A stretch of 64,000 bases of DNA from assembly GCF_000027125.1 (NCBI RefSeq), contig NC_017626.1; one strand, written 5' to 3'. Position 1 is the first letter of the stretch; each line of letters starts with the position of its first letter. Positions 3,384 to 25,121 of this stretch are shown piece by piece. A program made the translations under genes and the position numbers. The DNA is from Escherichia coli 042. Its GTDB lineage: Bacteria > Pseudomonadota > Gammaproteobacteria > Enterobacterales > Enterobacteriaceae. The notes under the pieces were generated by a model. That model searched no databases and had not been told where the DNA came from. It saw nothing but the letters and a program-made list of their open reading frames with translations.

Positions 3384-3746
3384 GGGGCTGATTCTGGATT
3401 CGACGGGATTTGCGAAACCCAAGGTGCATGCCGAGGGGCGGTTGGCCTCGTAAAAAGCCGCAAAAAATAGTCGCAAACGACGAAAACTACGCTTTAGCAG
3501 CTTAATAACCTGCTTAGAGCCCTCTCTCCCTAGCCTCCGCTCTTAGGACGGGGATCAAGAGAGGTCAAACCCAAAAGAGATCGCGTGGAAGCCCTGCCTG
3601 GGGTTGAAGCGTTAAAACTTAATCAGGCTAGTTTGTTAGTGGCGTGTCCGTCCGCAGCTGGCAAGCGAATGTAAAGACTGACTAAGCATGTAGTACCGAG
3701 GACGTAGGAATTTCGGACGCGGGTTCAACTCCCGCCAGCTCCACCA
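3384..3746 (+). ncRNA. ssrA: tmRNA (SsrA), 363 nt
   Basis: Starts GGGGCTGATTCTGGATTCGACGGG, contains tag reading frame gcaaacgacgaaaactacgctttagcagcttaa (ANDENYALAA*), ends GGGTTCAACTCCCGCCAGCTCCACCA. Confidence 0.97.
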
Positions 3747-3813: not shown

Positions 3814-3912
3814 CATGTCTAGCAGAGTCTACTGAGAATTGCTAGAAGCTACGCATTATGGGACCCTTATATGGACCCACCGACTGGGTCCAATAATTTG
3901 AGGGTCCAATAC

Positions 3913-5142
3913 ATGGCAAGGCAGACTAAAAAACTCACAGACACTGAAATCAAAAACACCAAACCAGCAGACAAAGAGATCAATCTCTTCGATGGTGATG
4001 GGCTACTGCTACGAATCGCTCCTTCATCAAAAGGAGGGAAGAAGAACTGGTATCTCAGATATCCAGTGCCAGTAACCAAGAAGCGCACCAAGATGAGCTT
4101 GGGTACCTACCCTCACCTCTCATTAGCAAAGGCAAGAGCTTTGCGTGATGAATACCTGTCGTTACTTGCTAATGGTGTTGACCCTCAAGTCCACATCACT
4201 GAAAAAACTAATGCTCTGAAAGATGCCACGGAGCACACGCTACAAGCAGTTTCTCGAAAGTGGTTAGATGAGAAAATTAAGACTTCTGGCATCTCTCTAG
4301 ACCATGCAGAAGATATCTGGCGCAGCCTCGAAAAAAACATCTTTTCAACTCTGGGTGATGTTCCTATCAAAGAGATCCGCCCCAAAATGCTCAAGCAGCA
4401 TCTTGACCCAATTGAGCAGCGCGGTGTTCTCGAAACTCTACGTCGTATAATTTCCAGACTGAATGAAATCTTTCGCTATGCTGCCACGGAAGAGCTTATA
4501 GAGTTCAATCCTGCCGACAATCTCGCTCAGCGTTTCAGTAAACCTAAGAAGCAAAACATGCCTGCCCTTCCACCTGATGAGCTACCACGCTTCATGGTTG
4601 CTTTATCTAACGCATCTATACGGTTAGAAACCCGTATGCTGATCGAGTGGCAATTGTTGACGTGGGTAAGGCCCGGTGAAGCCGTTCGGGCAAGATGGTG
4701 TGATATTGATGAAGAGAGCAGATTTTGGAATATCCCTTCAGAATTCATGAAAATGAAACGCCCACATAAGGTTCCATTGAGTAAAGAAGCTCTCCGCATT
4801 TTAGAAAACATGCGCCCTATCAGTGGTCATAGAGAATGGGTTTTCCCCAGCATCAAAGCTCCCCTCAGTCATATGCATGAACAAACAGCTAATGCAGCCA
4901 TAATTCGTATGGGGTTTGGCGGAGAGCTTGTTGCTCATGGTATGAGATCTATTGCAAGGACAGCAGCCGAAGAATACGGTAAGTTTAGAACGGAGGTGCT
5001 TGAATCCGCTCTGGCTCATACTAAAAAAGATGAAATAATAGCCGCGTATAACCGTTCGGAATACCTAGTTGAAAGAGAAGAACTAATGAAATGGTGGGGG
5101 GATTATGTCAGCAGCAAAAAATATAAGATGATGGCAGCATAA
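3913..5142 (+). CDS. Tyrosine recombinase / integrase, P4 family
   Basis: MARQTKKLTDTEIKNTKPADKEINLFDGDGL... with C-terminal R..HGMRS..A....Y catalytic-region pattern; similar to but diverged from K-12 IntA; ATG at 3913 preferred over ORF-track start 3871. Confidence 0.88.
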   Translation: MARQTKKLTDTEIKNTKPADKEINLFDGDGLLLRIAPSSKGGKKNWYLRYPVPVTKKRTKMSLGTYPHLSLAKARALRDEYLSLLANGVDPQVHITEKTNALKDATEHTLQAVSRKWLDEKIKTSGISLDHAEDIWRSLEKNIFSTLGDVPIKEIRPKMLKQHLDPIEQRGVLETLRRIISRLNEIFRYAATEELIEFNPADNLAQRFSKPKKQNMPALPPDELPRFMVALSNASIRLETRMLIEWQLLTWVRPGEAVRARWCDIDEESRFWNIPSEFMKMKRPHKVPLSKEALRILENMRPISGHREWVFPSIKAPLSHMHEQTANAAIIRMGFGGELVAHGMRSIARTAAEEYGKFRTEVLESALAHTKKDEIIAAYNRSEYLVEREELMKWWGDYVSSKKYKMMAA

Positions 5143-5163: not shown

Positions 5164-6501
5164 ATGACACAGCATAAGGTGAAAGTAATGAGAATATCAA
5201 AAACATTAGAATCATTATTTACATTTCTAAAGGAAAAAGAGCAGAAAGGTCAACTATTCAATAAAGAGGCTATACTCACAGCCACCGGTTGGAAAGCGGC
5301 TACATTTAGAACTTATTGGGTTAAAGGGCAGTTATCTGACTTTATTAGCGCAATTGATGAAGATACATTTGAGGCATCAAACTGTCAAAACATCTCAGTT
5401 ATAGAGTTTTCGAAACTATTATCTCAAAGTAAGCATAGAAGAGGGTTAGGTCATAATTGCCAGTCGAAACTAGCAAAAGCATTATTAACAAAATCTAGAG
5501 ATAATATGATGCTTGCTCTTGAATTATATAATAGACCTTCAATTGAGAATAGAATGGATGCATTTGTAATGTGTTTTTGCACTTCATGGGAACAATTATT
5601 AAAAGCTATTTTGATTGAAAAAAATGGTGAAGAGTCAATTTTCAAAAAAGAAAACAAGCGAGGATTCAGAGAAACTATTTCACTAAGAGACTGCTTAGAA
5701 AAAACATTCCCATCGAATTCAAAGGTAAGAAATAATATAGAACAAATAACAGTTTTCAGAGATCAGGCTGTACACCTTTTAATGCCAGAAATACAAGGGA
5801 TAGCCTCAAGGATATTTCAGTCTGGCGTTCTTAATTATTCATCATATTTTGAAAAATTCACAGAGGTTTCTTTTCTCAATAACAATAGCACAGGAATGAT
5901 ATCCTTGGTAGGTGAGTTTAGAACACCGCCAATATCCGTACTGAAATCCATTTATGGAGAAGTAGCGACTGATATATTAGACTTAGCAACAACTCTTCAG
6001 CAAGAAGTTGATGATAAAAATGACATAGAGTATGCAATTCCCTTAAATGTAAAACTTGTTTTTGCGACATCAGATGATGATGGGAATACCATAACCTTAG
6101 CTAAAGCTGATGAGGGAATCGAGGGGCTTAAGAAGGCTCTAATTATAGAAAAACCAGTAGATAGATCAAGAACACATCCGTATTTGCAGAAGGATGCCAT
6201 TGAGCATATAAATGAAAAAATCTACGAACTTTATAGTATAGAAAAGATAGAAAAGCATTTAGTATTCAAAGATAACAAAACAGGAAAGAAAGCGATAAAT
6301 AAAAATTGCTTTGATGCTGTTATTTGTAAGAACGGATGGAAAAAATCAAATAATAAATATCATCACAAAAACAATAATCCAGAATACCACTATTATTCAC
6401 CAGCATTAGTAGATGAATTTGTCAAGAAAGCTATGACAAACGAAGATTATCTAATGAATACAAAAAAATGGTATAATGCCAGAAGAAGTAAGAAAAAGTG
6501 A
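5164..6501 (+). CDS. Hypothetical protein, about 437-445 aa, low GC, Lys-rich C-terminus
   Basis: Long ORF; alternative ATG at 5188 has an AAGGTG Shine-Dalgarno; no family assignable by eye. Confidence 0.6.
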   Translation: MTQHKVKVMRISKTLESLFTFLKEKEQKGQLFNKEAILTATGWKAATFRTYWVKGQLSDFISAIDEDTFEASNCQNISVIEFSKLLSQSKHRRGLGHNCQSKLAKALLTKSRDNMMLALELYNRPSIENRMDAFVMCFCTSWEQLLKAILIEKNGEESIFKKENKRGFRETISLRDCLEKTFPSNSKVRNNIEQITVFRDQAVHLLMPEIQGIASRIFQSGVLNYSSYFEKFTEVSFLNNNSTGMISLVGEFRTPPISVLKSIYGEVATDILDLATTLQQEVDDKNDIEYAIPLNVKLVFATSDDDGNTITLAKADEGIEGLKKALIIEKPVDRSRTHPYLQKDAIEHINEKIYELYSIEKIEKHLVFKDNKTGKKAINKNCFDAVICKNGWKKSNNKYHHKNNNPEYHYYSPALVDEFVKKAMTNEDYLMNTKKWYNARRSKKK

Positions 6502-6835
6502 TGAATAGTGAAACTATGAACAGTACATATCATTTATAAGTGTGCTGTTCATAGTAATTCACAGAACATACTGATTAATTTTATTTTTTCCTAAAACCGG
6601 AAGAAAATAAACCAGTGAAATATTCTTTACATTTAAAATTCGGAGGCCACGGAAATATAAAATCTAATATTAATTACTAATTATATTTATAAAAGGTCTG
6701 CCTCTGACCATTTGAAATGAAAAACAAATCCCAATAATATAGAAAAAAATATCTGATATAATAATTTTGTAGATAAAATAGGCCTATATAAAAACATATC
6801 TTTAATTCCCCCCTTAAAAAGAGGGGCAAATACTG

Positions 6836-7801
6836 TCATTCCTCAAATCTATATAACGCGCCATCAAGATATTCTTCAACAGTATCTATACCGATCCATC
6901 TTCGGTTCAAACTCTCAGCTACAGCACCGGCAGTCATCGACCCACCAAATGGATCAAGAACTAAATCCCCTTCATCTGTAAGCATTTTAATGAAGAATTC
7001 AGGAAGCTGCATAGGGAAACGCGCAGGATGAATTTTGATACCATTAGCTTTACATTTTTTTGTATAAACGTCATTAGCTGCATTATTACCCATTTTCAAT
7101 ACATCAGACGGTGTTTCATCATCAATAAAATTAGGTGGGATAGACCCTCCATTATGGGTTTTATCAAAAGATTCATTAATATTATGTCCTGATGGTCGAA
7201 CAGTAGTTTTAACACCTTTTGCTGCAAGCCGAAGCATGTCCTTGCTATAAGGACGAAGCACTTTTTTATTACTTGCTTTTGGGTGTGGCCCTTTACTAAA
7301 CCAGAAAACATACTCTACAGAATCCTTCACTCGGACTCGTTTGACTGTAACCCATTGAGCAGGTACAGGCATCTTTGCAGGGTTGTACCAGAAAGTCTCT
7401 TGCGCTAGTCTGAATCCTACTTCCTCAACTAAAGCAATAACTAACTTAAAATGATAGATAGATCTAGTTGGCTCACCGGGATTCCAAGAGCCCCCGATGT
7501 TCAAAACGAAACTGCCATCTTCTGTCAGTATCCTTTTGATTTCTTTCGCAAAATCAACAAACCACTCAACGTAGTCCTTCTGACAGACATTACCATATTC
7601 TTTCTTAAAATGAAGTGCATATGGTGGAGATGTGAAGACTAAGTTAACCGAGTTATCAGGTATTGACTTCATCACGTCTAACGAATCGGCGTGGAAGATC
7701 GAACCCAAGTTAGATTCGTAAAACGGTTCAAACCCGTTGACTAACTTTGTAGTTGAATTTTTCTCTTTTGATGAAAAGTCAAGCGTTTTTTGAATAGTCA
7801 C
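6836..7801 (-). CDS. DNA methyltransferase, beta-class amino-methyltransferase (N4-cytosine or N6-adenine)
   Basis: Motif IV TSPPY near the N-terminus and motif [11 protein letters not shown] near the C-terminus (order IV then I); no ATG upstream of the conserved N-terminal region, so start is GTG at 7801 or GTG at 7882. Confidence 0.8.
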
Positions 7802-7869
7802 AACAATAAATCTCGAAATGGGCAATCGGATTGCATTGTTGCGTACATAACACAAGGGATCAAGTACAG

Positions 7870-8559
7870 ATGAACCAACCACAGGACTTTACAGCTCTTC
7901 TTAACAGCTTAACTCCTCAAGAGCAGCAAATGCTTTTCACGCAACTTCGCGGAAGAATTCCCATCCATCCTCTTGAACAGCAATGGAATATTACAGCAGA
8001 ATTCATTTTAGAAGCCATTGCGCGAAGCCAAGATATCACGAAACGAGGCGTAAGAGGAATCATTGCAGAGCTATGTTTCGATACATATATCATAGGTGCA
8101 ATGAAACATAAGGGCTGGATACAACATCAACTTTTTGGAGATTTACCCTATGATGCACTGATTTCTCATCCTCATGTCGGGGAAATAAAAATACAAACTA
8201 AAAACCAACGACTTGAACGTGGAGTCCCAAAATACGCAAATGGACCAATGATAAAATTCAATCCATATGTCGAAGGTTGGTATGTTTGCGAAACACAGAA
8301 AACGAGGACAGGAAAAAATGCGGAAGGGTTAGATACGAGGCCATATAGATTTGGTGAGTTTGATATACTATCAGTTTGCCTCCATCCGTCATCGGGTGAT
8401 TGGACACGATTCATGTTTTGCCCTGCATATACACTAATGCCAAGAGCGACAAATCCTGAACTAATTGCTGTTTTACAACCAGTACCACCTACACGACAAG
8501 GAAATTGGACTGATAATCTTGAGGAAGCGATTGAATGGCATTTGAACCGTAATCGTTAA
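7870..8559 (+). CDS. Putative restriction endonuclease partner of the methyltransferase (PD-ExK-like motif)
   Basis: Divergent from the methyltransferase with a short shared control region; ATG at 7870 has an AAGGG ribosome-binding site; motif [18 protein letters not shown] fits D...ExK. Confidence 0.45.
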
Positions 8560-8725: not shown

Positions 8726-9204
8726 GACACTTCCTGAAGTGAATATCCTCAAGGAACCATTATTAAATATAATATTAAATGTAGATTGTCAAATATATTT
8801 GAATATTTATTAAAAATATATTCACAACGACCAATCACAAATAAATTTAATCCCCCATAAATAATTAGAGGATCAAACCAAGTTCCTGATGCCTTATCTC
8901 TTTTATATCTCATGGTATATGTCTGAATGTCAAAACATGGTATATAACAACCAGAGAGCATTTTTATAGGCTGCTATTATCTGACACTCCTTTCCCCGTT
9001 GCTGTTTCCTATAAAAGAGCCAGAGATAGATAATAGCATTTTTATTTCTATCTTATTCACTCTGGATCGCTCGGCTCACAGCTTATTGGGGCGCTCGGAA
9101 CATCAACATAGGATAAAATACCTACCATTTAAATAAATCATAAGATTATACATGTCAAGATAAAGCATGAAATTATATATAGGTTTATCACGGCTATAGA
9201 TACT

Positions 9205-9516
9205 TCACTCCTGCCTCCCAATCATATCCCCAAGAAACCTTTTTCCTCGTAATTTTAATCTTGCTTTATCTTCAATGCTAATATTCGATAATTGTAATAT
9301 CAGTCCTAATATTAACTCCTTATCTACCTCTTCTACTTTACAGCCCATAGCTTTAGCTACCTCAGCACCAAGGATGATCTTCAAGCGTGTCTCTGCGCTC
9401 TTGGATAGAGATTTTTCTTTACTCTTAAGGCGATTCAGACGCATTTGAGCTGATGCTATTTTTTGCTTAATGGTTTTTTCTGATCTCGGCTTTCTACCTT
9501 TATCATCCGTATTCAT
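9205..9516 (-). CDS. mobC: MobC-like mobilisation accessory protein
   Basis: 103 aa basic protein; RL..L....E.R.K.ILGA.VAK pattern resembles RSF1010 MobC; divergent from the relaxase across the oriT-like region. Confidence 0.6.
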   Translation of the reverse strand: MNTDDKGRKPRSEKTIKQKIASAQMRLNRLKSKEKSLSKSAETRLKIILGAEVAKAMGCKVEEVDKELILGLILQLSNISIEDKARLKLRGKRFLGDMIGRQE

Positions 9517-9632
9517 AATTACTTTTCCTTCTAGTTGTCAAAAACATGGAATACAATTAAAAAAGGAAAAGGTCAAACCATAGGCAGAAGGTTGAATACT
9601 TTTTATTCCAGATTAAATAACGCAGCGCGAGA

Positions 9633-9696
9633 TGATTGTTCAAAACAATCACATTGCTGGAACAGGGTTCATCCCTGTTAATGATAGGATTCATCT
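9633..9696. promoter_or_regulatory. Copy A of a roughly 64-bp repeat: palindrome TGATTGTT-CAA-AACAATCA plus hairpin ACAGGG-TTCAT-CCCTGT
   Basis: Near-identical copy at 24961-25023; palindrome alone again at 25101-25121; lies upstream of the mobC-like gene. Confidence 0.55.
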
Positions 9697-10149
9697 CAAA
9701 AAATGATGTTTTGGTTTTAAAAATATGATATTAGTAAGCTCAAAATAAAAACATGCAACACATACGAATGCAGTCACTAACATTAATTACCTGATACTCT
9801 CCGCGTTACTTATTTTATTGAATCAATGAAAACAATTTTACCTCTTGCTTTTTGACTCTGATTTCTGGTCTTAACCTGTGAATTGTGCAACACATAAAAG
9901 TATTTATAATTTTCACTATTTATTTTAAATTCTGCTTTCCCGCCTTACGGCGAGAGACTAATTTAACTACTTTTGCCCTTACGGGCGTTTTCTAAACACC
10001 AGAATCCAATATTATTATCCTACCTCAACCGTTTATCCGATTCCTACCTTTTTAATTTCACAGTCTGTAAAACTAGAGCTATTATTTAACTATAGAAAAA
10101 CATAAAACATTGTCGTTATTTTTAGCTCCTTTAGGAGATATAAAAATAA

Positions 10150-10260
10150 AGCAATGCCCACCTATACACTGCTACGCAGTGTGTGGGGTCTACCGACGGT
10201 TGCCTGCCGCAGGCTAACACCGTTTCCTTCGGAAACAAGGTCAACGTCAACACCAGAGTT
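10150..10260. other. Candidate origin of transfer (oriT), MOBQ/RSF1010-like
   Basis: Between divergent mobC-like and mobA-like genes; inverted repeats ACACTG-CTACG-CAGTGT (10157-10188) and GTTTCC-TTC-GGAAAC (10222-10236), the latter resembling the RSF1010 oriT inverted repeat. Confidence 0.5.
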
Positions 10261-10351
10261 TTTCTTACGAAAAACTAAAACCAGCTGAGTCGTATTGGAG
10301 ATTTATATTTTGGTTTGATATTTAAATTTATTTTGAGGTTGTTTTTATTAT

Positions 10352-11860
10352 ATGGCTATTTTTCATCTGGATTTTAAAATTGTGAAACGTTCTGAAGGCA
10401 GATCTTCCGTTGCGAAAGCTGCCTATCATGCTCGTACACGTATAACAGATGAAAGAACAGGTGATACCTATGATTATAGTCGCCGTACCGATTTATACGG
10501 ACATTTCATATTAGCACCAATTAATGCTCCAGAACATATCGTGAAAGACTCTACAGCATTGTGGAATGAAGTTGAAAGAGTTGAGCGCCAGAGCAATGGT
10601 CAAACATCCCGTTATTTCGATGTTGCCATACCTGCCGAGTTAAACAATGACGACAAGAAAAGACTTGTCCTTGAGTATTGTCAGAAAAATTTCGTTGATA
10701 AAGGCATGATTGCCGATATCGCTTTCCACGATCTTGATAGCGATAATCCTCATGCTCACGTTATGTTGACATTAAAAACCATAGGCCCTGAAGGTTTTGG
10801 TAAAAAAGAAAGAAGCTGGAACGACAGAAAAATGTCTGTTATATGGCGTGAATCATGGGCATCTATGGCTAACAGCTACCTTGCTGCCGCTGGCTCGTCA
10901 GAACGTATTGACCATCGTTCTCTTCAGGCCCAGCATGAAGAGGCATTAGAAAAAGCGGCGGTAGCTTTAGATAATGAAGAAAAAGCGCTATGGCTTGCTA
11001 AAGCCGCTGAAACAAACCGTCCTCCAATGAAGCGTATCCATAGTGCCAAATGGCGTAGTAAAGCAGCACAAGAGCAAAGAGCAGCAGAACAGGCTGTTCG
11101 TGATGCTGCCAAGCAGGAAGCGGTTGAAGTCTACAAGACTTTCAGCGAACTTGATCTTGAAATCGTCGTTGATGTCAGAAGCTTCACCGTGGCTGCTCTT
11201 GCTGAACCAGAAGAGATTGTATTACCAGAAACGCGCTCCGGCTCTTCTTCTCATGAAGCACAAAGTCCTGTATTGGTAGCGCCTATTCCTCATACTCATG
11301 TGCGTGGAGTTAAATCTTACCGCGATAAAGAAAAAGTGAGTAAAGTTGTCATTAATAATATATCAGAACCAAATGTTGCTGATGCTGACATAAACACTCT
11401 TTGGAAAACATCTCCATCTAAAACCAAAAATATGGCATCCAAAAGTACCGCTGAAAGTGTTAAAAGGAAACAGGCTAATCCGCGTCAGGATAATATCTTT
11501 AAACGCTTTACAACGCTTTTGATCGGTTTCTTCAAAGAGAAATTTATATGGGCTAAGAAGAAACCTGATCCTACCGAGATTGAACATGACAGGCATGTAG
11601 CAGAAAATTACGTCTTTGATGAAGTGCTGGGTGTCTATGTATCACGCGCTGACCATGAACAACGAGCCAGATTCAACGGTGATGATAAAGAGTTCTCTGG
11701 TTACAAGCCAACACCTGATGAGATTAAGCGTTTTCCAAGCCGTCTAGCTAATACAGCACAAACTGATAGAGAGCTCGACTACATGCCTTCGCTCGTGGCT
11801 GATAAGAAATCGTTAGCACCTAAATTGAAACCAAATGCTCCCTATAAAAATAGATTATAA
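10352..11860 (+). CDS. mobA: Relaxase, MobA/MobL (MOBQ) family
   Basis: N-terminus MAIFHLDFKIVKRSEGRSSVAKAAYHARTR and NPHAHVMLT (HxH) motif parallel RSF1010 MobA (MAIYHL..., NPHCHLMIS). Confidence 0.85.
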   Translation: MAIFHLDFKIVKRSEGRSSVAKAAYHARTRITDERTGDTYDYSRRTDLYGHFILAPINAPEHIVKDSTALWNEVERVERQSNGQTSRYFDVAIPAELNNDDKKRLVLEYCQKNFVDKGMIADIAFHDLDSDNPHAHVMLTLKTIGPEGFGKKERSWNDRKMSVIWRESWASMANSYLAAAGSSERIDHRSLQAQHEEALEKAAVALDNEEKALWLAKAAETNRPPMKRIHSAKWRSKAAQEQRAAEQAVRDAAKQEAVEVYKTFSELDLEIVVDVRSFTVAALAEPEEIVLPETRSGSSSHEAQSPVLVAPIPHTHVRGVKSYRDKEKVSKVVINNISEPNVADADINTLWKTSPSKTKNMASKSTAESVKRKQANPRQDNIFKRFTTLLIGFFKEKFIWAKKKPDPTEIEHDRHVAENYVFDEVLGVYVSRADHEQRARFNGDDKEFSGYKPTPDEIKRFPSRLANTAQTDRELDYMPSLVADKKSLAPKLKPNAPYKNRL

Positions 11861-17097: not shown

Positions 17098-17505
17098 ATG
17101 TCTGATGCTTTAAAGATCATCAACAATATTCGTACTCTCCGTGCTCAGGCTCGTGAACTGACACTCGAAACCTTGGAAGAGATGTTAGAAAAACTCACTA
17201 TCGTTGTAGAAGAACGTCGTGAAGAAGAGGCCTCATTTCTAAAACAGCAGGAAGAGAAACAGGCCAAGCTGGAAGCATTCCGTCAGAAGTTGTTGGAAGA
17301 TGGCATAGACCCGGCAGAGTTGCTTTCAACTGTTAGCCCATCTTCTTCCAAGACAGGAGCGAAACGCGCCCCACGTCCAGCTAAGTATAAATATGTTGAT
17401 ACCGATGGTTCGGAAAAGACGTGGACAGGTCAGGGCCGAACTCCTCGTGCTATCGCTGCTGCGCTCGAAGCCGGTAAGACACTGGAAGATTTCGAGATCA
17501 AGTAA
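17098..17505 (+). CDS. H-NS family nucleoid-associated protein, island-encoded paralogue
   Basis: 135 aa; ...[23 protein letters not shown]...[25 protein letters not shown] parallels the StpA encoded at 50350-50754 in this window. Confidence 0.85.
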
Positions 17506-18324: not shown

Positions 18325-19578
18325 TTATTCACTTGCCTGAGTCGCTCTTGTCGCATTTGTTTTTAAATTATTCAGCATTTGCTTATCAACCGGTTGCAGT
18401 TGTTGTCCTAACAGAGCCGCAAGCAAAATATTTGTGTCTTCTGTTCTTTCGATTTGAAGCATTTGTAATCTTAAATCAAGTGCCTGCATTCTTGCCTGCT
18501 CATGCGCAGTTTCTTTTTCATCAGCACTACTGATTTTTACCTGCCAAGCGTCAGCACCTGTTGTATCTGCATAGCGTGAATAGATCTCATATCTTAACAT
18601 TTCCCACTCTGAAGGATTATCCGGGAATGTTGTGCCGGGAAATAAGGTCGCATACTTGTTTTTTACGGAAGCATCTGACCAAGCAAGGTTTGCTCCCTGC
18701 GTAGAGCCCAATGTGGATCCTATTTTGGCCCCTCTGGAGTTCACTGATATATTACTTGCTTTTTTCATTGCCAGTACGGAATCAATGGCGTTTGTTCCAG
18801 CAGTGCTTCTGGAGACAAAGCTCGAAAAGGCCGATAAATATTCTCGACCTTCATTTGTGTCTTCTAATCCTTTGTTCTTCAATGGTTCAACGGGCAAGTT
18901 CCCTATAAGATTTCTTTTTGCCGCTTCAGCAACCTCAATCTGCTCAACAGAATAGGACTGATTCGAAACCTTATTAGACAATGCATCGGATTTAGATAAT
19001 GGTGGTGTAATCAGGCTTGATGCCGACTTATCTTTATCAGGATACTGACCTATAGTATTACACCCACCTCTGTTATATTTCACATCATCTTCGGAGCAAA
19101 CATTTATTGATACTCTGCCCATGATGTTTTTCTTGGCCTCATTTATTCTGGTATTTGCTTGTGTAAACATCTTAACGCTGTTTTCAGATAAAGCCTCTTT
19201 AGCTGAGCTTGTATTCGATCCTGCTGCACCACGACCACCTGCGCTCGTGACTTCTTCACAGGCGTTGGCATCAGGTATTCTGTTTAAGATATTTTTCATG
19301 CGCTGTTCTTGGATTGCCTGACTGGCATTACTGACAACCGCATTCTTCTGATTCTCACTGGCTGTTATGGTTGCTTGTGCCAGCTTGTCGTTCATTGAGA
19401 CTAATGTTTCAATTATTCCATTGCCCATAGATTGGGGTGAAGCCCCCATAAGATACGGTGTCAAAACCTCTTCTGTGACGGGCCAGACAGCGAAAGCTGT
19501 ATTTGTATATAATACAGAAAAACACAAAGCTGAAACCACTGTTATTCTCTTTACTTTAAATTTATTATTACTCATCAC
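18325..19578 (-). CDS. Secreted/periplasmic protein (417 aa), unknown function
   Basis: N-terminal signal peptide (…LYTNTAFAVWP); third gene of a three-gene minus-strand cluster. Confidence 0.6.
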   Translation of the reverse strand: MMSNNKFKVKRITVVSALCFSVLYTNTAFAVWPVTEEVLTPYLMGASPQSMGNGIIETLVSMNDKLAQATITASENQKNAVVSNASQAIQEQRMKNILNRIPDANACEEVTSAGGRGAAGSNTSSAKEALSENSVKMFTQANTRINEAKKNIMGRVSINVCSEDDVKYNRGGCNTIGQYPDKDKSASSLITPPLSKSDALSNKVSNQSYSVEQIEVAEAAKRNLIGNLPVEPLKNKGLEDTNEGREYLSAFSSFVSRSTAGTNAIDSVLAMKKASNISVNSRGAKIGSTLGSTQGANLAWSDASVKNKYATLFPGTTFPDNPSEWEMLRYEIYSRYADTTGADAWQVKISSADEKETAHEQARMQALDLRLQMLQIERTEDTNILLAALLGQQLQPVDKQMLNNLKTNATRATQASE

Positions 19579-19948: not shown

Positions 19949-22609
19949 TCACATTCCATCATTACCTTCTTTTGATGATGAACTACCACCGGAAGATCCA
20001 CTACCGCTCCCTTTCTCTGGAGCCTTAAAGCTTTCAATTGGTGAAGCTTGGGCCTGTAAACTTACAGGCAGCAACGGTCTGTTATGTTCACCAAACGATA
20101 CCGCTCTGTTAGCAGCCTTTTGAGCTACATTCATATAACCTGCTGCGCCTGCTGTATCACCAATAGCATCTGCTGCCTCAGCTGCATGGTAAGCCGAGTT
20201 AGCACTTTCAAGAGACTGATATTCATCCTGCTGATCAAGTGGGCCAGCATTACTCATATGAGTTCTGAATGCAGATCCCGTATCATTGGCTTTATTAGCC
20301 GCCAGTGCTTTCCCCTGTTGAGCCTGTTGCTGTTGTTGAAGCTCACGTTGCTGTTCACGGTCTTTGTTAATTTGCGCATTCCTGATCTGATTACCCATCG
20401 CATTTGAGGTATGGGAAACCTGATCCAACACGGTTTTGGTAAACATAGCACCTTCAACACCTTTTGATGCCGACTGTGCGTAACCCGACATGCTCTGACC
20501 ACCATGAACACCAAGCCACTTCATAATTTCATCAGGGATGATGTGAATCAGTGAAAGTGATTTCTTCACTACCGTGAACATCATTGCAATATAAACAGCA
20601 ATGAGAGCCAGTGACTCGATGATACCTATCCCGGCATTGGCTGACATCATGCCAAAAGCGCCGGAGAATGTTTCGTTGACGATCCCACCAAGGATAGGGA
20701 GCATCGTATAGGCTGCTATTAATCCTGTTATCATTAGCGCTGGTCGCATGGTTAACGATAAAACCAGACCATAACCAGCGCCACCACGACCCACTACGCC
20801 ATCACCATCTGGATGTAAATGTGTTATTACCCATAATGGTGCTGCGACCATTGCTTCAAGGCACAGGATCATCCAGCCTACGCAAACACCAAACCACATG
20901 ACGTAAGGCAGCATAGGAATGACGACGGCTAAAGTATCGCCAGCTATCCATAAAGGGATAACCAGTGGCATAACAATCCCCATAGCGCCAAATGCACCCG
21001 ATACCCAGCTTGCAGTCGCTGATGTCCATGCGCCAAGACCTGCCCCAACAACAGCAGAACTCCCTAATAACGTCCAGCCAGCGGCACTGATCGTATCCCC
21101 AAGCCCTTTAACAGCTAATAACGGGTTTATTGCCTGTAAATTGGCAGCGGTTGTGTCCGTCGAGAACGAGACGATTTTCCCTTGTTTTCTTCCATTGATA
21201 ACGCTGGAACTGAGAAAACCCGCCATTGCACCAGAAATGCTCTTATTGGCTTCACTTTGAAGAGAAGAAACTATTTTTCCAGCATCATCTGTTTTAGGGC
21301 CTACACCACTTTTACCACTGGTATTGGCTTCCGTTCGGTTTTGCGCATCAATACCATTCGCATATCTTGAAGCTGTCGTTGATTTCGCCATATCTTGAGC
21401 CACTTTTGCCATAATCGCGTTCAGGCTGTTATCGAATATATCTCCGTATTCCATTGTCGCTTGCCCGGCTACAGGAAGATTATGAGCTGCTCCATTAATC
21501 GCATCCTGCACACGGATCAGTTTCATACTCCATGCGCCAGCCATAAACCATCCGTCTTTCTGGACATTCTCTTTGAAATCATCCCACTGGTCGCCAGTGG
21601 AGAAAACTGTTCGTACTGCAGTATCAATAATGGATACATATGAGGCCGTTGCGCTGTTTATTCCGGTCTGAATATCAATATTATTATCGGCCACATACTG
21701 TTCAGCCAGCGTTTTCATACTATTATCAAGGCCGATAAATGCGGCATTGTGTGCCTCAATAACATCTGAAATATTCGTCTTTATATCCTGTGGCATATAA
21801 GCCATATACATGCCGCCAGCAGCAATGGTAGCCTGAGCTTTAGCCTGTTCGTCATAAGAAGCTTTGGCCTTCGGGTCTGTAAGCGTGATGCTTCCACATG
21901 CAGCCTTGGATACCAGTAAATTTTTATTCATATCATTACCGGCATTGCTGGCTCCATAACTGTATGTGTATAAATAGGCACCTTTCTCCGGTGTCATTTC
22001 AAACGCAGGCGTGACGTGCGGGAAGGGATCGGCTGCTGCTGATTTCTTCCATAATTCTCCCGCCTTTAACATACAGACGTTATTGATAAAGGCGGTTTTC
22101 GCTATGCGATCAAGCTCCTGATAAGATGCAGATGTGGTAATAACAGCCCCATCTGAGGGGTTGGATGCATAGGTATTCCAGACGGTATCTGCCAGACCGA
22201 CTCCCTGATTAATCATCCACAGCACCATAACCTGAGCGGCACAGAAACCACCTGCTGCCGGGAGTATCATTGCCGTGCCTAATGCAGTTCTTACGGGCAA
22301 CCACATGGAAGACCATTTCTTACCCAGCATTTCTCCGTCATGTGCCGTTGACATGGTTCCGGCAATCAGTGTGTAGGCAGCTAAAATGCCACCAACCAGT
22401 AAAACAGCGCTGTTAAGGATTGTCATTGTGCTGGCTAAGGGACTTTCCGCTAAATTGTCCGGGAATAAGATATCCAGAAACCACAGCTTTGATTTGTCTG
22501 TCTCCGGGACGGTAAATAAATCTGCGGCATAAGCTGACTGAGTTAATAACAGGCAAGCTAATATTACTAATAATATCGATACTTCTTTTTTCTTTATATT
22601 TATCATCAT
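19949..22609 (-). CDS. Large polytopic membrane protein (886 aa) with signal peptide and Gln-rich / Gly-Ser-rich C-terminus; possibly mating-pore related
   Basis: Signal peptide ...LLTQSAYAADL; many hydrophobic segments; C-terminal ELQQQQQAQQ and GSGSGSSGGSSSS low-complexity runs. Confidence 0.6.
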   Translation of the reverse strand: MMINIKKKEVSILLVILACLLLTQSAYAADLFTVPETDKSKLWFLDILFPDNLAESPLASTMTILNSAVLLVGGILAAYTLIAGTMSTAHDGEMLGKKWSSMWLPVRTALGTAMILPAAGGFCAAQVMVLWMINQGVGLADTVWNTYASNPSDGAVITTSASYQELDRIAKTAFINNVCMLKAGELWKKSAAADPFPHVTPAFEMTPEKGAYLYTYSYGASNAGNDMNKNLLVSKAACGSITLTDPKAKASYDEQAKAQATIAAGGMYMAYMPQDIKTNISDVIEAHNAAFIGLDNSMKTLAEQYVADNNIDIQTGINSATASYVSIIDTAVRTVFSTGDQWDDFKENVQKDGWFMAGAWSMKLIRVQDAINGAAHNLPVAGQATMEYGDIFDNSLNAIMAKVAQDMAKSTTASRYANGIDAQNRTEANTSGKSGVGPKTDDAGKIVSSLQSEANKSISGAMAGFLSSSVINGRKQGKIVSFSTDTTAANLQAINPLLAVKGLGDTISAAGWTLLGSSAVVGAGLGAWTSATASWVSGAFGAMGIVMPLVIPLWIAGDTLAVVIPMLPYVMWFGVCVGWMILCLEAMVAAPLWVITHLHPDGDGVVGRGGAGYGLVLSLTMRPALMITGLIAAYTMLPILGGIVNETFSGAFGMMSANAGIGIIESLALIAVYIAMMFTVVKKSLSLIHIIPDEIMKWLGVHGGQSMSGYAQSASKGVEGAMFTKTVLDQVSHTSNAMGNQIRNAQINKDREQQRELQQQQQAQQGKALAANKANDTGSAFRTHMSNAGPLDQQDEYQSLESANSAYHAAEAADAIGDTAGAAGYMNVAQKAANRAVSFGEHNRPLLPVSLQAQASPIESFKAPEKGSGSGSSGGSSSSKEGNDGM

Positions 22610-24484: not shown

Positions 24485-24960
24485 TATATTTTCGTTCTAA
24501 GCCTTATGCCGTAAGGGCTACAGGCCGGTTTTTTCTTAATTTAATTTTGCAAGAAGTAAGAGATAATACTTAATAGGATTAAAAGAAACCGGGCGATTTT
24601 TATAATCGCCATACAGGGTTTCAATATTTTAAATGATTAGTTTTTTTGAGTGCAATATTTATTTTTATTGCGAAGCATTTCTTTCTATTTCACTAACATC
24701 TTTTTTTTGAAAATCACCACCATCTATGAGCTGAAGCTCATGTGCTGACGCACGGCTACGCCCTAACTCTGAAATATGTATTTTTATCTTGATGAGGTGT
24801 CTTATTAATATTGATAGTAAAAAGAGGAAAGATCTTTTCCAGATCATTTCATCATAAAAAACAAAATTGATCCTATGTTTGAACATAGCATTACCGCAAT
24901 AACATATAGCATTTTCCCTTAAACGAATAGGAAAATTATATTTTCAGTAGCAGCACTTAG

Positions 24961-25121
24961 TGATTGTTCAAGACAATCACATTGCTGGAACAGGGTTCAT
25001 CCCTGTCAATGATGGATTTATCCATAAAGAATTGCGGCGATAGCCGCTATGAAATAAAGGAGAAACAATTTCATCTGTACTCATATATAAGCAGTGCTAA
25101 GTGATTGTTTAAAACAATCAC
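24961..25121. promoter_or_regulatory. Copy B of the 64-bp repeat (24961-25023) plus a third copy of the palindrome GTGATTGTTTAAAACAATCAC (25101-25121)
   Basis: Copy B is about 90 percent identical to copy A at 9633-9696, including hairpin ACAGGGTTCATCCCTGT. Confidence 0.55.

What the first reader, a model, noticed from the sequence alone, without database searches (positions are those of the whole stretch)
9205..11860. MobC / oriT / MobA mobilisation module with an RSF1010-like oriT inverted repeat
The relaxase N-terminus and HxH motif closely parallel RSF1010 MobA. A MobC-like gene is divergent, and the 836-bp spacer contains GTTTCC-TTC-GGAAAC (10222-10236), resembling the RSF1010 oriT repeat, plus a second inverted repeat at 10157-10188. 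A chromosomal IncQ-type mobilisation module at ssrA is unusual.
Basis: partly seen in the sequence, partly recalled or inferred. Interest (0 to 1): 0.6.

Follow-up and report, generated by a model that had tools for sequence, protein, structure and literature searches.

The report
Transfer origin of a mobilisable island

Summary
The sequence features are present as described. ORF 10352-11860 is an intact MOBQ-class relaxase with Tyr25 and His126/134/136. The divergent 103-aa gene (9205-9516) belongs to the TraD family. It is homologous to the "MobC" of MOBQ4 plasmids, and no RSF1010 MobC sequence was compared.

The module is neither IncQ-type nor unusual. Its spacer occurs in 791 of 5426 complete E. 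coli chromosomes. TraD plus a MOBQ relaxase is the published hallmark of ROD21-like (EARL) islands.

- It has the architecture of the pSK41/RSF1010 nic region.
- A covariance model built only from unrelated MOBQ oriTs finds it as the sole significant hit in the window (31 bits, E about 3.5e-6).
- It shows compensatory changes at 7 of 13 pairs.
- Its core is 65/65 identical to the Nissle 1917 island, where mobQ is only 75% identical.

The predicted nick lies between 10157 and 10156 on the minus strand. The helper plasmid is unknown; IncI-type (MPF_I) is inferred.

Verdict: a new member of a known kind, of low to moderate interest.

The parts
3384..3746 (+). ssrA (tmRNA), the integration target. 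The low-GC island begins just after it.
   Evidence: ARAGORN; GC profile; RefSeq annotation of a 99.9%-identical strain.
3871..5142 (+). Tyrosine integrase of the island (PRK09692 type).
   Evidence: NCBIfam NF007246, 442 bits. Only 31% identical to the integrase of the Nissle serU island.
9205..9516 (-).
   Evidence: Pfam PF06412 TraD, 1.1e-12. 38% identity to the ColE9-J MOBQ4 'MobC', E 1e-9. RefSeq calls it 'conjugal transfer protein TraD'.
9517..10351 (.). 835-bp non-coding spacer between traD and mobQ, with no ORF of 50 aa or more. It holds the oriT and several conserved hairpins.
10149..10188 (-). oriT core on the nicked (minus) strand: outer stem CCCAC/GTGGG (10157-10161 with 10183-10187), 4-nt bulge ATAG (10162-10165), inner stem 10166-10172 with 10176-10182, loop 10173-10175, then the nic core.
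   Evidence: A covariance model built from five non-EARL MOBQ oriTs gives a full-length hit of 31 bits, E 3.5e-6; the next best hit is 11.3 bits. nhmmer places its top hit here. Covariation: 98.4% of cells paired, 7 of 13 pairs with changes on both sides, 0 of 500 shuffles as good. DNA fold z -3.63. 10153-10217 is 65/65 identical to Nissle 1917.
10156..10157 (-). Predicted nic: the phosphodiester between G (complement of 10157) and C (complement of 10156) in GGTGGG|CATTG.
   Evidence: Inferred from the model alignment to AAGTGCG|CCCT. AATGCCC is invariant in all relatives, including 4-kb plasmids. The nick position in pSK41 and RSF1010 is taken from the literature as I recall it.
10189..10221 (.). 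Near-invariant block 5' of the hairpin on the nicked strand. It holds GTC-TACC-GAC (covaries to CCC..GGG in L024, L027 and L042) and the palindrome GCCTGC-C-GCAGGC. Candidate accessory-protein binding or initiation region.
   Evidence: At least 95% column conservation. The function is inferred.
10222..10236 (.).
   Evidence: Absent from 23 of 38 relatives. Fold z -1.4 to -1.6.
10240..10251 (.). Tandem GTCAAC GTCAAC (three or four copies in L024 and L032). Candidate protein-binding repeats.
   Evidence: The function is inferred.
10257..10276 (.). AGTTTTTC-TTAC-GAAAAACT hairpin. The stem is invariant and only the loop varies.
   Evidence: A 25-26-nt exact match (10258-10283) occurs in 30 of the 33 matching plasmid records, those listed being about 4-kb TraD-MobQ plasmids. 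Fold z -3.48.
10352..11860 (+). mobQ relaxase. The HUH relaxase domain is about aa 1-200 (10352-10951). The C-terminal 300 aa or so have no recognised domain.
   Evidence: dN/dS 0.03-0.12 against homologues in other genera.
9938..9985 (.). Two conserved GC-rich tetraloop hairpins in the predicted leading region: TCCCGCC-TTAC-GGCGAGA (9938-9956) and GCCC-TTAC-GGGC (9974-9985). The second becomes GTCC-TTC-GGAC in the distant subgroup.
   Evidence: The function is unknown; strand priming or a ssDNA signal is speculation.
9622..9704 (.). 83-nt element with two palindromes near traD. A second copy lies at 24950-25032.
   Evidence: A likely shared operator (inferred).

Best explanation
The region is the DNA-processing (mobilisation) module of an integrative mobilisable island inserted at ssrA. 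The island has the backbone of ROD21-like (EARL) islands but a different integrase.

Proposed mechanism:
1. The integrase excises the island as a circle.
2. The MobQ relaxase, helped by the TraD-family accessory protein, binds the oriT hairpin on the minus strand (10188 to 10149).
3. MobQ cuts at GGTGGG|CATTG (between 10157 and 10156) and becomes linked through Tyr25 to the 5' end.
4. A co-resident conjugative plasmid supplies the coupling protein and mating channel. An IncI-like (MPF_I) plasmid is the likeliest helper.
5. The minus strand enters the recipient 5' to 3'. The spacer 10156 to 9517 goes first, followed by traD, the restriction/defence cargo and int. mobQ enters last.
6. MobQ reseals the strand and the integrase inserts the island at ssrA.

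Shown here: the protein families and catalytic residues; the homology, structure and extreme conservation of the oriT core; the dispensability of the 10222-10236 hairpin.

Inferred: the exact nick position, the role of TraD, the direction of transfer, the helper type, and whether transfer occurs at all.
For: Relaxase:
- PF03389 at 3.5e-55 and NF041496 at 259.7 bits.
- Y25, H126 and N132 are invariant across nine relatives down to 33% identity. The NPHAH (H134/H136) motif is present in all eight sequences that extend that far.
- dN/dS is 0.03-0.12.

Accessory protein:
- TraD family.
- Homologous to the ColE9-J MobC, which enhances MOBQ4 mobilisation (PMC6856555).

oriT:
- Relatives at 36-50% relaxase identity carry GCAC-stem-loop-stem-(A/G)TAA-GTGCG-C(CCT/ATTG) on the strand opposite the relaxase gene. 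In most this lies about 50-240 nt upstream of it. pSK41 has the same arrangement.
- The window's minus strand has this architecture, with CATTG 3' of the predicted nick as in the Lactobacillaceae set.
- Model R1, built without any EARL sequence, hits 10149-10188 (-) at 31 bits, E 3.5e-6, the only significant hit in 64 kb.
- R1 also hits 31 of 44 related loci, always on the minus strand. One hit falls inside the experimentally delimited 178-bp oriT of ColE9-J (PMC6856555).
- Covariation is seen at 7 of 13 pairs.
- The core is 65/65 identical to the Nissle island, although mobQ is only 75% identical.
- A GTGGGCA-type core was already predicted as oriT in the MOBQ plasmids pMARC3 and pMOS6 (PMC3832669).

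Island context:
- int lies next to ssrA, and no T4SS or coupling protein is annotated in the near-identical strain.
- TraD plus MOBQ is the EARL hallmark (PMC6035254, PMC10763509).

Helper inference:
- MPF_I plasmids are the best helpers of MOBQ4 plasmids (PMC6856555).
- Relatives carry IncI-type pilS/pilV.
- This island carries a DotA/TraY homologue.
Against: - No experiment supports transfer of this island.
- In ROD21, deleting the mobA homologue SEN1980 did not change the transfer frequency, which was very low and pSLT-dependent (PMC3976249).
- The nic core (GGTGGG|CATT) departs from the mapped consensus (AGTGCG|CCCT) at several positions, so the exact bond is an extrapolation.
- The hairpin is quasi-symmetric, so a nick on the plus strand cannot be excluded from sequence alone.
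- The right end (attR) of the island was not found.
- traD is frameshifted in at least one strain.
- The helper type rests on analogy only.
Confidence: 0.75

Rival explanations
1. One reading: the oriT recognition repeat is GTTTCC-TTC-GGAAAC (10222-10236) on the plus strand, an RSF1010/IncQ-type origin.
For: The arms share GTTTC/GAAAC with the RSF1010 repeat GTTTCTC-GAA-GAGAAAC. The hairpin lies within the conserved block.
Against: It is absent from 23 of 38 relatives that keep everything around it. No TAAGTGCGCCCT-like sequence follows it. It folds no better than shuffles. The MOBQ oriT model does not hit it.
Confidence: 0.03
2. The same hairpin is used, but the nick is on the plus strand about 8 nt 3' of it (GTCTACCG|ACGG, near 10195/10196). 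mobQ would then enter the recipient first.
For: The hairpin is nearly symmetric, and the plus-strand 3' flank is also at least 95% conserved. ColE9-J has GTGCGCCCT on the mobA-coding strand as well.
Against: In all 30 or so relatives with a canonical core, the 4-nt bulge and TAAGTGCG lie on the strand opposite the relaxase gene. Both HMM and CM hits are on the minus strand only. The plus-strand flank shows covariation typical of a stem (GTC..GAC to CCC..GGG), not the invariance expected of a nic core.
Confidence: 0.07
3. The module no longer serves conjugative transfer. The conserved block is mainly a promoter/operator or structured 5' leader for mobQ and traD, or the relaxase drives rolling-circle replication of the excised island rather than transfer.
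For: The ROD21 SEN1980 deletion had no effect on transfer (PMC3976249). Promoter-like sites at 10057-10085 (+) and 10116-10089 (-) would place the hairpins inside transcripts. The region holds many hairpins.
Against: The relaxase is under strong purifying selection across about 20 genera. The architecture is specifically that of an oriT nic site. Small plasmids with the same TraD-oriT-MobQ layout are typed as mobilisable. Promoter matches are no more frequent than in shuffles. There are no Rfam hits. A replication role would add to transfer rather than replace it.
Confidence: 0.12

Closest known systems
MOBQ4 mobilisation modules of small enterobacterial plasmids (pIGWZ12, ColE9-J; Garcillan-Barcia et al. 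2019, PMC6856555)
   Same: The layout is the same: a small divergent accessory gene, an intergenic oriT, then the relaxase. The relaxase domain is 47% identical and the accessory protein is homologous. The oriT model hits the same strand and the same relative position, inside the functional 178-bp oriT of ColE9-J.
   Different: The module is chromosomal and island-borne. The spacer is 835 bp rather than 178 bp. At 47% identity it lies outside the MOBQ4 clade, whose internal average is 84%. The C-terminal region is unrelated. The nic core is GTGGG|CATT rather than GTGCG|CAC.
ROD21-like (EARL) genomic islands: ROD21, ICEKp258.2 and the CFT073/Nissle serU tcpC island (PMC6035254, PMC10763509)
   Same: They share the TraD plus MOBQ relaxase pair and a backbone that includes the SEN1982-family lipoprotein, H-NS paralogues, DUF6387 and a small HTH gene. 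The oriT core is 65/65 identical to that of the Nissle island.
   Different: This island is integrated at ssrA, not at an Asn-tRNA. Its integrase is only 31% identical. It has no pilS/pilV. It carries DotA/TraY and a 'TraW family' gene instead, plus RM/PDC-S19 cargo.
NES/oriT of pSK41, pGO1 and pLW1043 (PDB 4HT4)
   Same: This is the best structural match (E 4.8e-26). The oriT geometry is the same: outer GCAC/GTGC complementarity, a 7-bp inner stem, a 4-nt ATAA bulge and then the nic, on the strand opposite the relaxase gene.
   Different: Relaxase identity is 32%. The host is Gram-positive and the plasmid is conjugative. The nic core is GTGCG|CCCT.
RSF1010/R1162 (IncQ, MOBQ1) MobA-MobC-oriT
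   Same: It uses an HUH relaxase with Tyr25 and three His residues. The oriT has the inverted repeat, 8 nt, then nic logic. TAAGTGCG|C compares with TAGGTGGG|C here.
   Different: The homology is only distant (E 8.9e-7). No Pfam primase domain and no MobB are present. The accessory protein is TraD family. No IncQ replicon is present.

Membership tests
MOBQ class relaxases | MobA/MobL relaxase domain recognised by family profiles | tested here: met
   PF03389 at 3.5e-55. NF041496 MobQ at 259.7 bits against a cut-off of 200.
MOBQ class relaxases | Catalytic Tyr (motif I) and the H-x-D...NPHxH metal site (motif III) | tested here: met
   Y25, H126 and N132 are invariant. H134 and H136 (the PHAH motif) are present in every sequence that reaches them.
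MOBQ class oriT | Inverted repeat followed by a nic region matching the NWACCNNTAAGTGCGCCCTYNN consensus (quoted in PMC3832669) | tested here: inconclusive
   The architecture and strand match (model R1, 31 bits, E 3.5e-6). The core reads TATAGGTGGGCATTG, which departs from the consensus at several positions. Cleavage was not tested.
IncQ / MOBQ1 (RSF1010 type) | Close relaxase homology to RSF1010 MobA with a fused primase | tested here: not met
   The match to 2ns6 is only E 8.9e-7. Pfam finds no domain beyond residue 196.
IncQ / MOBQ1 (RSF1010 type) | RSF1010-type MobC accessory protein and an IncQ replicon | tested here: not met
   The accessory protein is TraD family (PF06412), with no MobC-family Pfam hit. 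No rep genes are annotated in the near-identical island. The RSF1010 MobC sequence itself was not compared.
IncQ / MOBQ1 (RSF1010 type) | An oriT repeat GTTTCTC-GAA-GAGAAAC followed by TAAGTGCG|CCCT | tested here: not met
   The similar-looking hairpin at 10222-10236 is followed by AAGGTCAACG and is an indel in relatives.
MOBQ4 plasmid mobilisation modules | Relaxase N-terminal domain within the MOBQ4 clade (about 84% average identity) | tested here: not met
   47% identity to ColE9-J MobA over 207 aa. This suggests a related clade; no phylogeny was made.
MOBQ4 plasmid mobilisation modules | A small divergent mobC, with the oriT in the intergenic region | tested here: met
   The accessory-protein homology is E 1e-9. 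The oriT model hits both spacers.
MOBQ4 plasmid mobilisation modules | Efficient mobilisation by MPF_I helpers and a cis-acting relaxase | not testable with these tools
   This needs mating assays.
EARL (ROD21-like) islands | [quoted passage not shown] | tested here: not met
   The island abuts ssrA. No repeat of the ssrA 3' end was found.
EARL (ROD21-like) islands | Conserved excision/integration module (ROD21-type P4-like integrase plus RDF) | tested here: inconclusive
   The integrase is 31% identical to that of the Nissle serU island. A small HTH gene and a DUF6387 gene sit at the far end, as in relatives. The ROD21 integrase itself was not compared.
EARL (ROD21-like) islands | TraD homologue plus a MobA/MobL (MOBQ) relaxase | tested here: met
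   The oriT core is identical to that of the Nissle island.
EARL (ROD21-like) islands | Type IV pilin and PilV-like genes | tested here: not met
   Neither is annotated in the 99.9%-identical island. Both are present in relatives L002-L004.
Integrative mobilisable element (IME) | Own integrase, own relaxase and oriT, and no complete T4SS or coupling protein | tested here: met
   int at 3871-5142, mobQ and oriT. Apart from an orphan DotA/TraY and a 'TraW family' gene, no transfer apparatus is annotated. Excision and transfer were not tested.

The most novel reading that the evidence does not exclude
These ssrA, serU and Asn-tRNA islands may form one superfamily of mobilisable islands specialised to parasitise IncI-type (MPF_I) conjugative plasmids.

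On this reading they combine a MOBQ4-like TraD-oriT-MobQ relaxosome with their own substitutes for helper surface or channel parts. Most relatives carry PilS/PilV. This island carries a very divergent DotA/TraY plus a neighbouring gene. The analogy is SGI1, which remodels the IncC mating apparatus.

The long conserved hairpin-rich leading region, next to a variable defence-gene slot, would help establishment in the recipient.
Probability: 0.25. Interest if true: 0.65.

Novelty: new member of a known kind. Interest (0 to 1): 0.3.

Why it matters
The genes are already named correctly by routine annotation, and the island family is published, so the module itself is not a discovery.

The useful addition is a precise, testable oriT and nick prediction for a family whose oriT I could not find mapped in the literature held here. 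That family includes ROD21, ICEKp258.2 of K. pneumoniae ST258 and the tcpC island of uropathogenic E. coli, and it is present in about one in seven complete E. coli genomes.

The analysis also suggests why the only functional test may have shown no role for the relaxase. That test deleted the ROD21 mobA homologue and used an F-like helper, which may have been the wrong helper. The islands carry virulence and anti-phage cargo, so knowing how and with which plasmids they move bears on the spread of those traits.

Tried and rejected
- Rfam scan of 9100-10500 at E up to 1: no hits.
- Promoter and terminator scans: no enrichment over shuffles.
- RSF1010 by accession NC_001740: not in the plasmid collection. 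I instead validated the RSF1010 oriT sequence I recalled by a 100% match in at least 80 IncQ-type plasmids.
- My first idea that GCCCTTACGGGC (9974-9985) is the nic, because of its resemblance to pSK41 GCGCCCTTACGGG. Rejected: it covaries to GTCC..GGAC in the distant subgroup, is absent from the small plasmids, and is not hit by the oriT model.
- MAFFT alignments of diverse MOBQ oriTs were not structure-consistent, and RNAalifold predicted no pairs. A five-sequence in-register alignment was used for the model instead.
- A sequence-only nhmmer profile placed its top hit at the right site, but only at E 0.41.
- The search for attR, a repeat of the ssrA 3' end, found nothing.
- The 'TraW family' label on 18325-19578 could not be confirmed by Pfam, NCBIfam or PHROGs. 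The 174-aa neighbour has no Pfam hit.
- Library searches for a citable mapped MOBQ nick position yielded only the consensus sequence.
Full report
**Setting**

The window is E. coli chromosome. ssrA (tmRNA, tag ANDENYALAA) lies at 3384-3746. It is followed by a low-GC stretch (about 30-45% GC) that runs to about 41 kb.

A strain that is 99.9% identical over the finding (NZ_OZ547150.1) has the same arrangement: smpB, ssrA, an integrase, then island genes.

The island proper appears to end near 29.9 kb, after the DUF6387 gene. Beyond it lie an autotransporter and ypjCB-like genes. I could not find a repeat of the ssrA 3' end that would mark attR.

**Checking the observation**

ORF 10352-11860 is a MOBQ relaxase.
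- Pfam MobA_MobL scores 3.5e-55 over residues 17-196.
- NCBIfam MobQ scores 259.7 bits against a cut-off of 200.
- The best solved structure is NES of pLW1043 (4ht4, E 4.8e-26). RSF1010 MobA (2ns6) is much weaker at E 8.9e-7.
- The catalytic tyrosine is not in MAIFHL, which contains none. It is Tyr25 in AKAAYHAR, aligned with Tyr25 of MobA.
- The metal-site histidines are H126, H134 and H136.
- Y25, H126 and N132 are invariant across nine relatives down to 33% identity.

The divergent 103-aa ORF is TraD family (PF06412, 1.1e-12). It gave no match to Pfam's MobC family. It is homologous to the protein called MobC in MOBQ4 plasmids (ColE9-J, 38% identity over 63 aa, E 1e-9).

**How common it is**

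The spacer has matches in 791 of 5426 complete E. coli genomes, all on chromosomes. RefSeq annotates the pair as 'MobQ family relaxase' and 'conjugal transfer protein TraD'.

Three strains I inspected carry it at ssrA, each with different cargo between int and traD. In Nissle 1917 it sits in the serU tcpC island, next to IncI-type pilS/pilV.

The literature describes TraD plus a MobA/MobL (MOBQ) relaxase as a conserved module of the Enterobacteriaceae-associated ROD21-like (EARL) islands, including ICEKp258.2 (PMC6035254, PMC10763509). Those papers mention a 'cognate oriT' but do not map one.

**Where the oriT is**

I aligned the 700 nt upstream of mobQ from 38 Enterobacterales relatives. These came from about 20 genera and have relaxase domains 70-98% identical to the window's.

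The block 10148-10282 is at least 95% conserved.
- That stretch is an insertion/deletion, missing from 23 of the 38 relatives.
- The hairpin also folds no better than shuffled sequence.
- It is therefore dispensable.

The hairpin at 10157-10188 is kept in every relative, with compensatory apex variants (ACTGC-TAC-GCAGT against ACTCAC-TTCG-GTGAG). On a 15-sequence alignment that includes three small plasmids:
- 98.4% of cells pair;
- 7 of 13 pairs show changes on both sides;
- no shuffle out of 500 reaches this, and slid controls pair at 25-47%.

**Which strand, and where the nick is**

More distant MobQ relatives (36-50% identity) came from Firmicutes, cyanobacteria and other groups. They carry a common motif on the strand opposite the relaxase gene, in most about 50-240 nt upstream of it:
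- GCAC-(AC)-stem-loop-stem-GT-ATAA-GTGCG-CCCT, or
- in Lactobacillaceae, ...TGTAAGTGCG-CATTG.

pSK41 has GCAC-GCGAACG-GAA-CGTTCGC-ATAA-GTGCG-CCCTTACGGG on the strand opposite nes. This matches the MOBQ consensus NWACCNNTAAGTGCGCCCTYNN (quoted in PMC3832669). In RSF1010 and NES the nick follows GTGCG; that position is established knowledge as I recall it (Scherzinger 1992; Edwards 2013), not re-read here.

The window's minus strand reads CCCCAC-AC-ACTGC-GTA-GCAGT-GT-ATAG-GTGGG-CATTGC. It shows:
- the same outer complementarity;
- the same 7-bp inner stem;
- the same 4-nt bulge;
- the CATTG found in the Lactobacillaceae set.

The distant EARL subgroup reads GTATAAGTGGGCATTG, one step closer to the consensus.

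As an independent test I built a covariance model from five non-EARL oriTs (pSK41 plus four metagenomic relatives).
- It hits 10149-10188 on the minus strand full-length at 31 bits, E about 3.5e-6. The next best hit in the 64-kb window is 11.3 bits.
- It hits 31 of 44 related loci, always on the minus strand. One hit is inside the 178-bp ColE9-J region shown experimentally to be the oriT (PMC6856555).
- A sequence-only HMM also places its top hit at the same site, but only at E 0.41.

The model alignment puts the nick between 10157 and 10156.

AATGCCC, the complement of GGGCATT, is invariant in every relative, including 4-kb TraD-oriT-MobQ plasmids. The core 10153-10217 is 65/65 identical to the Nissle island, even though mobQ there is 75% identical at the nucleotide level and synonymous sites are saturated.

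A GTGGGCA-type core has been predicted as oriT in the Paracoccus MOBQ plasmids pMARC3 and pMOS6 (PMC3832669), so the variant has precedent.

**Comparison with RSF1010**

The RSF1010 oriT was validated by a 100% match in at least 80 IncQ-type plasmids. It reads GTTTCTC-GAA-GAGAAAC-CGG-TAAGTGCG|CCCT.

Its counterpart in the window is ACACTGC-GTA-GCAGTGT-A-TAGGTGGG|CATT on the minus strand. The GTTTCC hairpin is not the counterpart.

**Closest characterised system**

The relaxase domain is 47% identical to ColE9-J MobA (MOBQ4), 43-47% to the small-plasmid MobQs and 32% to Nes.

MOBQ4 plasmids have the same layout, a non-essential but stimulatory MobC, a cis-acting relaxase, and MPF_I plasmids (R64, pCTX-M3) as the best helpers (PMC6856555).

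I infer an IncI-like helper from three points:
- that precedent;
- the IncI-type pilS/pilV in relatives;
- the DotA/TraY homologue in this island.

This remains analogy only.

**Is it functional?**

The relaxase domain is under strong purifying selection (dN/dS 0.03-0.12 against eight genera), and the oriT core is far more conserved than the genes around it.

Against this, the one published test found no effect on transfer. It deleted the ROD21 mobA homologue and measured transfer at about 1e-8 with the F-like pSLT as the only candidate helper (PMC3976249).

traD is frameshifted in one strain.

**Other conserved elements in the spacer (unexplained)**
- The tandem GTCAAC repeats (10240-10251).
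- An invariant-stem hairpin (10257-10276), whose 25-26-nt core is shared exactly with 30 small plasmids.
- GTC-TACC-GAC (10188-10198), which covaries to CCC..GGG in three loci.
- Two GC-rich TTAC-loop hairpins in the predicted leading region (9938-9985).
- An 83-nt palindrome-bearing element near traD (9622-9704), repeated at 24950-25032.

Likely roles are accessory-protein binding, promoters or operators, or single-strand signals. None of these was tested.

**Verdict**

The specific reading is wrong on four points:
- the RSF1010-like repeat as the oriT;
- the IncQ-type label;
- the RSF1010 MobC-like identity of the small gene;
- the claim that the module is unusual.

This is a new member of a known kind. 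The modest new result is a precise oriT and nick prediction for the ROD21-like island family.

Noticed in passing
window 19949-22609 (-) and 18325-19578 (-): The island carries an orphan, very divergent DotA/TraY-family protein (TIGR04346, 2.3e-125; only about 21-23% identical to plasmid TraY proteins). Next to it is a gene that RefSeq labels 'TraW family', which Pfam, NCBIfam and PHROGs do not confirm. The pair occurs in 190 of 5426 E. coli chromosomes. Among plasmid records only one close match appeared (87% identity), a 393-kb E. coli record, CP088875.1, which also carries the mobQ/oriT module. No other T4SS genes are present. The pair could modify a helper's MPF_I apparatus or its entry exclusion.
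   Followed up: partly
window 9622-9704 and 24950-25032: An 83-nt direct repeat (81% identity) holds two palindromes, TGATTGTTCAAAACAATCA and AACAGGGTTCATCCCTGTT. Both copies lie in divergent intergenic regions of the island. It is probably a shared operator for an island regulator.
   Followed up: no
window 5164-8559; L089 5100-8819; L090 4389-8450 and 11979-13784: The slot between int and traD lies in the predicted leading region and holds different defence cargo in different strains. Here it holds a PDC-S19 candidate (DUF3644), a type II methyltransferase and an overlapping 242-aa ORF that may be the endonuclease. Strain 4/1-1 has an ABC-three-component system. CFSAN061763 has a Dcm-like methylase plus an ATPase, and ApeA after mobQ.
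   Followed up: partly
window 9938-9956 and 9974-9985: Two conserved GC-rich hairpins with TTAC loops lie about 170-220 nt from the predicted nick, on the side that would enter the recipient first. The second shows a compensatory change (GCCC/GGGC to GTCC/GGAC) in the distant subgroup. The function is unknown; a priming or single-strand signal is possible.
   Followed up: partly
L084, L085, L086 (about 4-6-kb plasmids of E. coli and Klebsiella): Small plasmids, typed MOBQ where typed, share the nic core GGGCATT and the TTTTTC-TTAC-GAAAAA-CTAAAACC hairpin with the islands. L084 shows the full TraD-oriT-MobQ layout. This points to exchange of this module between plasmids and islands.
   Followed up: partly
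window 30281-34984 (-) and 35789-36886 (-), tRNA-Met 37995-38070 (-): Beyond the island's apparent right end lie a 1567-aa Ag43/AIDA-like autotransporter, a YpjCB-family gene and a tRNA-Met, all still in low-GC DNA. These look like older ssrA-adjacent island remnants. In the near-identical strain the DUF6387 end of the island lies only about 1 kb from glaH.
   Followed up: no
window 17098-17505 (+): The island encodes H-NS-family paralogues, as ROD21-like islands do. The equivalents in the near-identical strain include a full-length copy (this ORF) and a truncated one.
   Followed up: no
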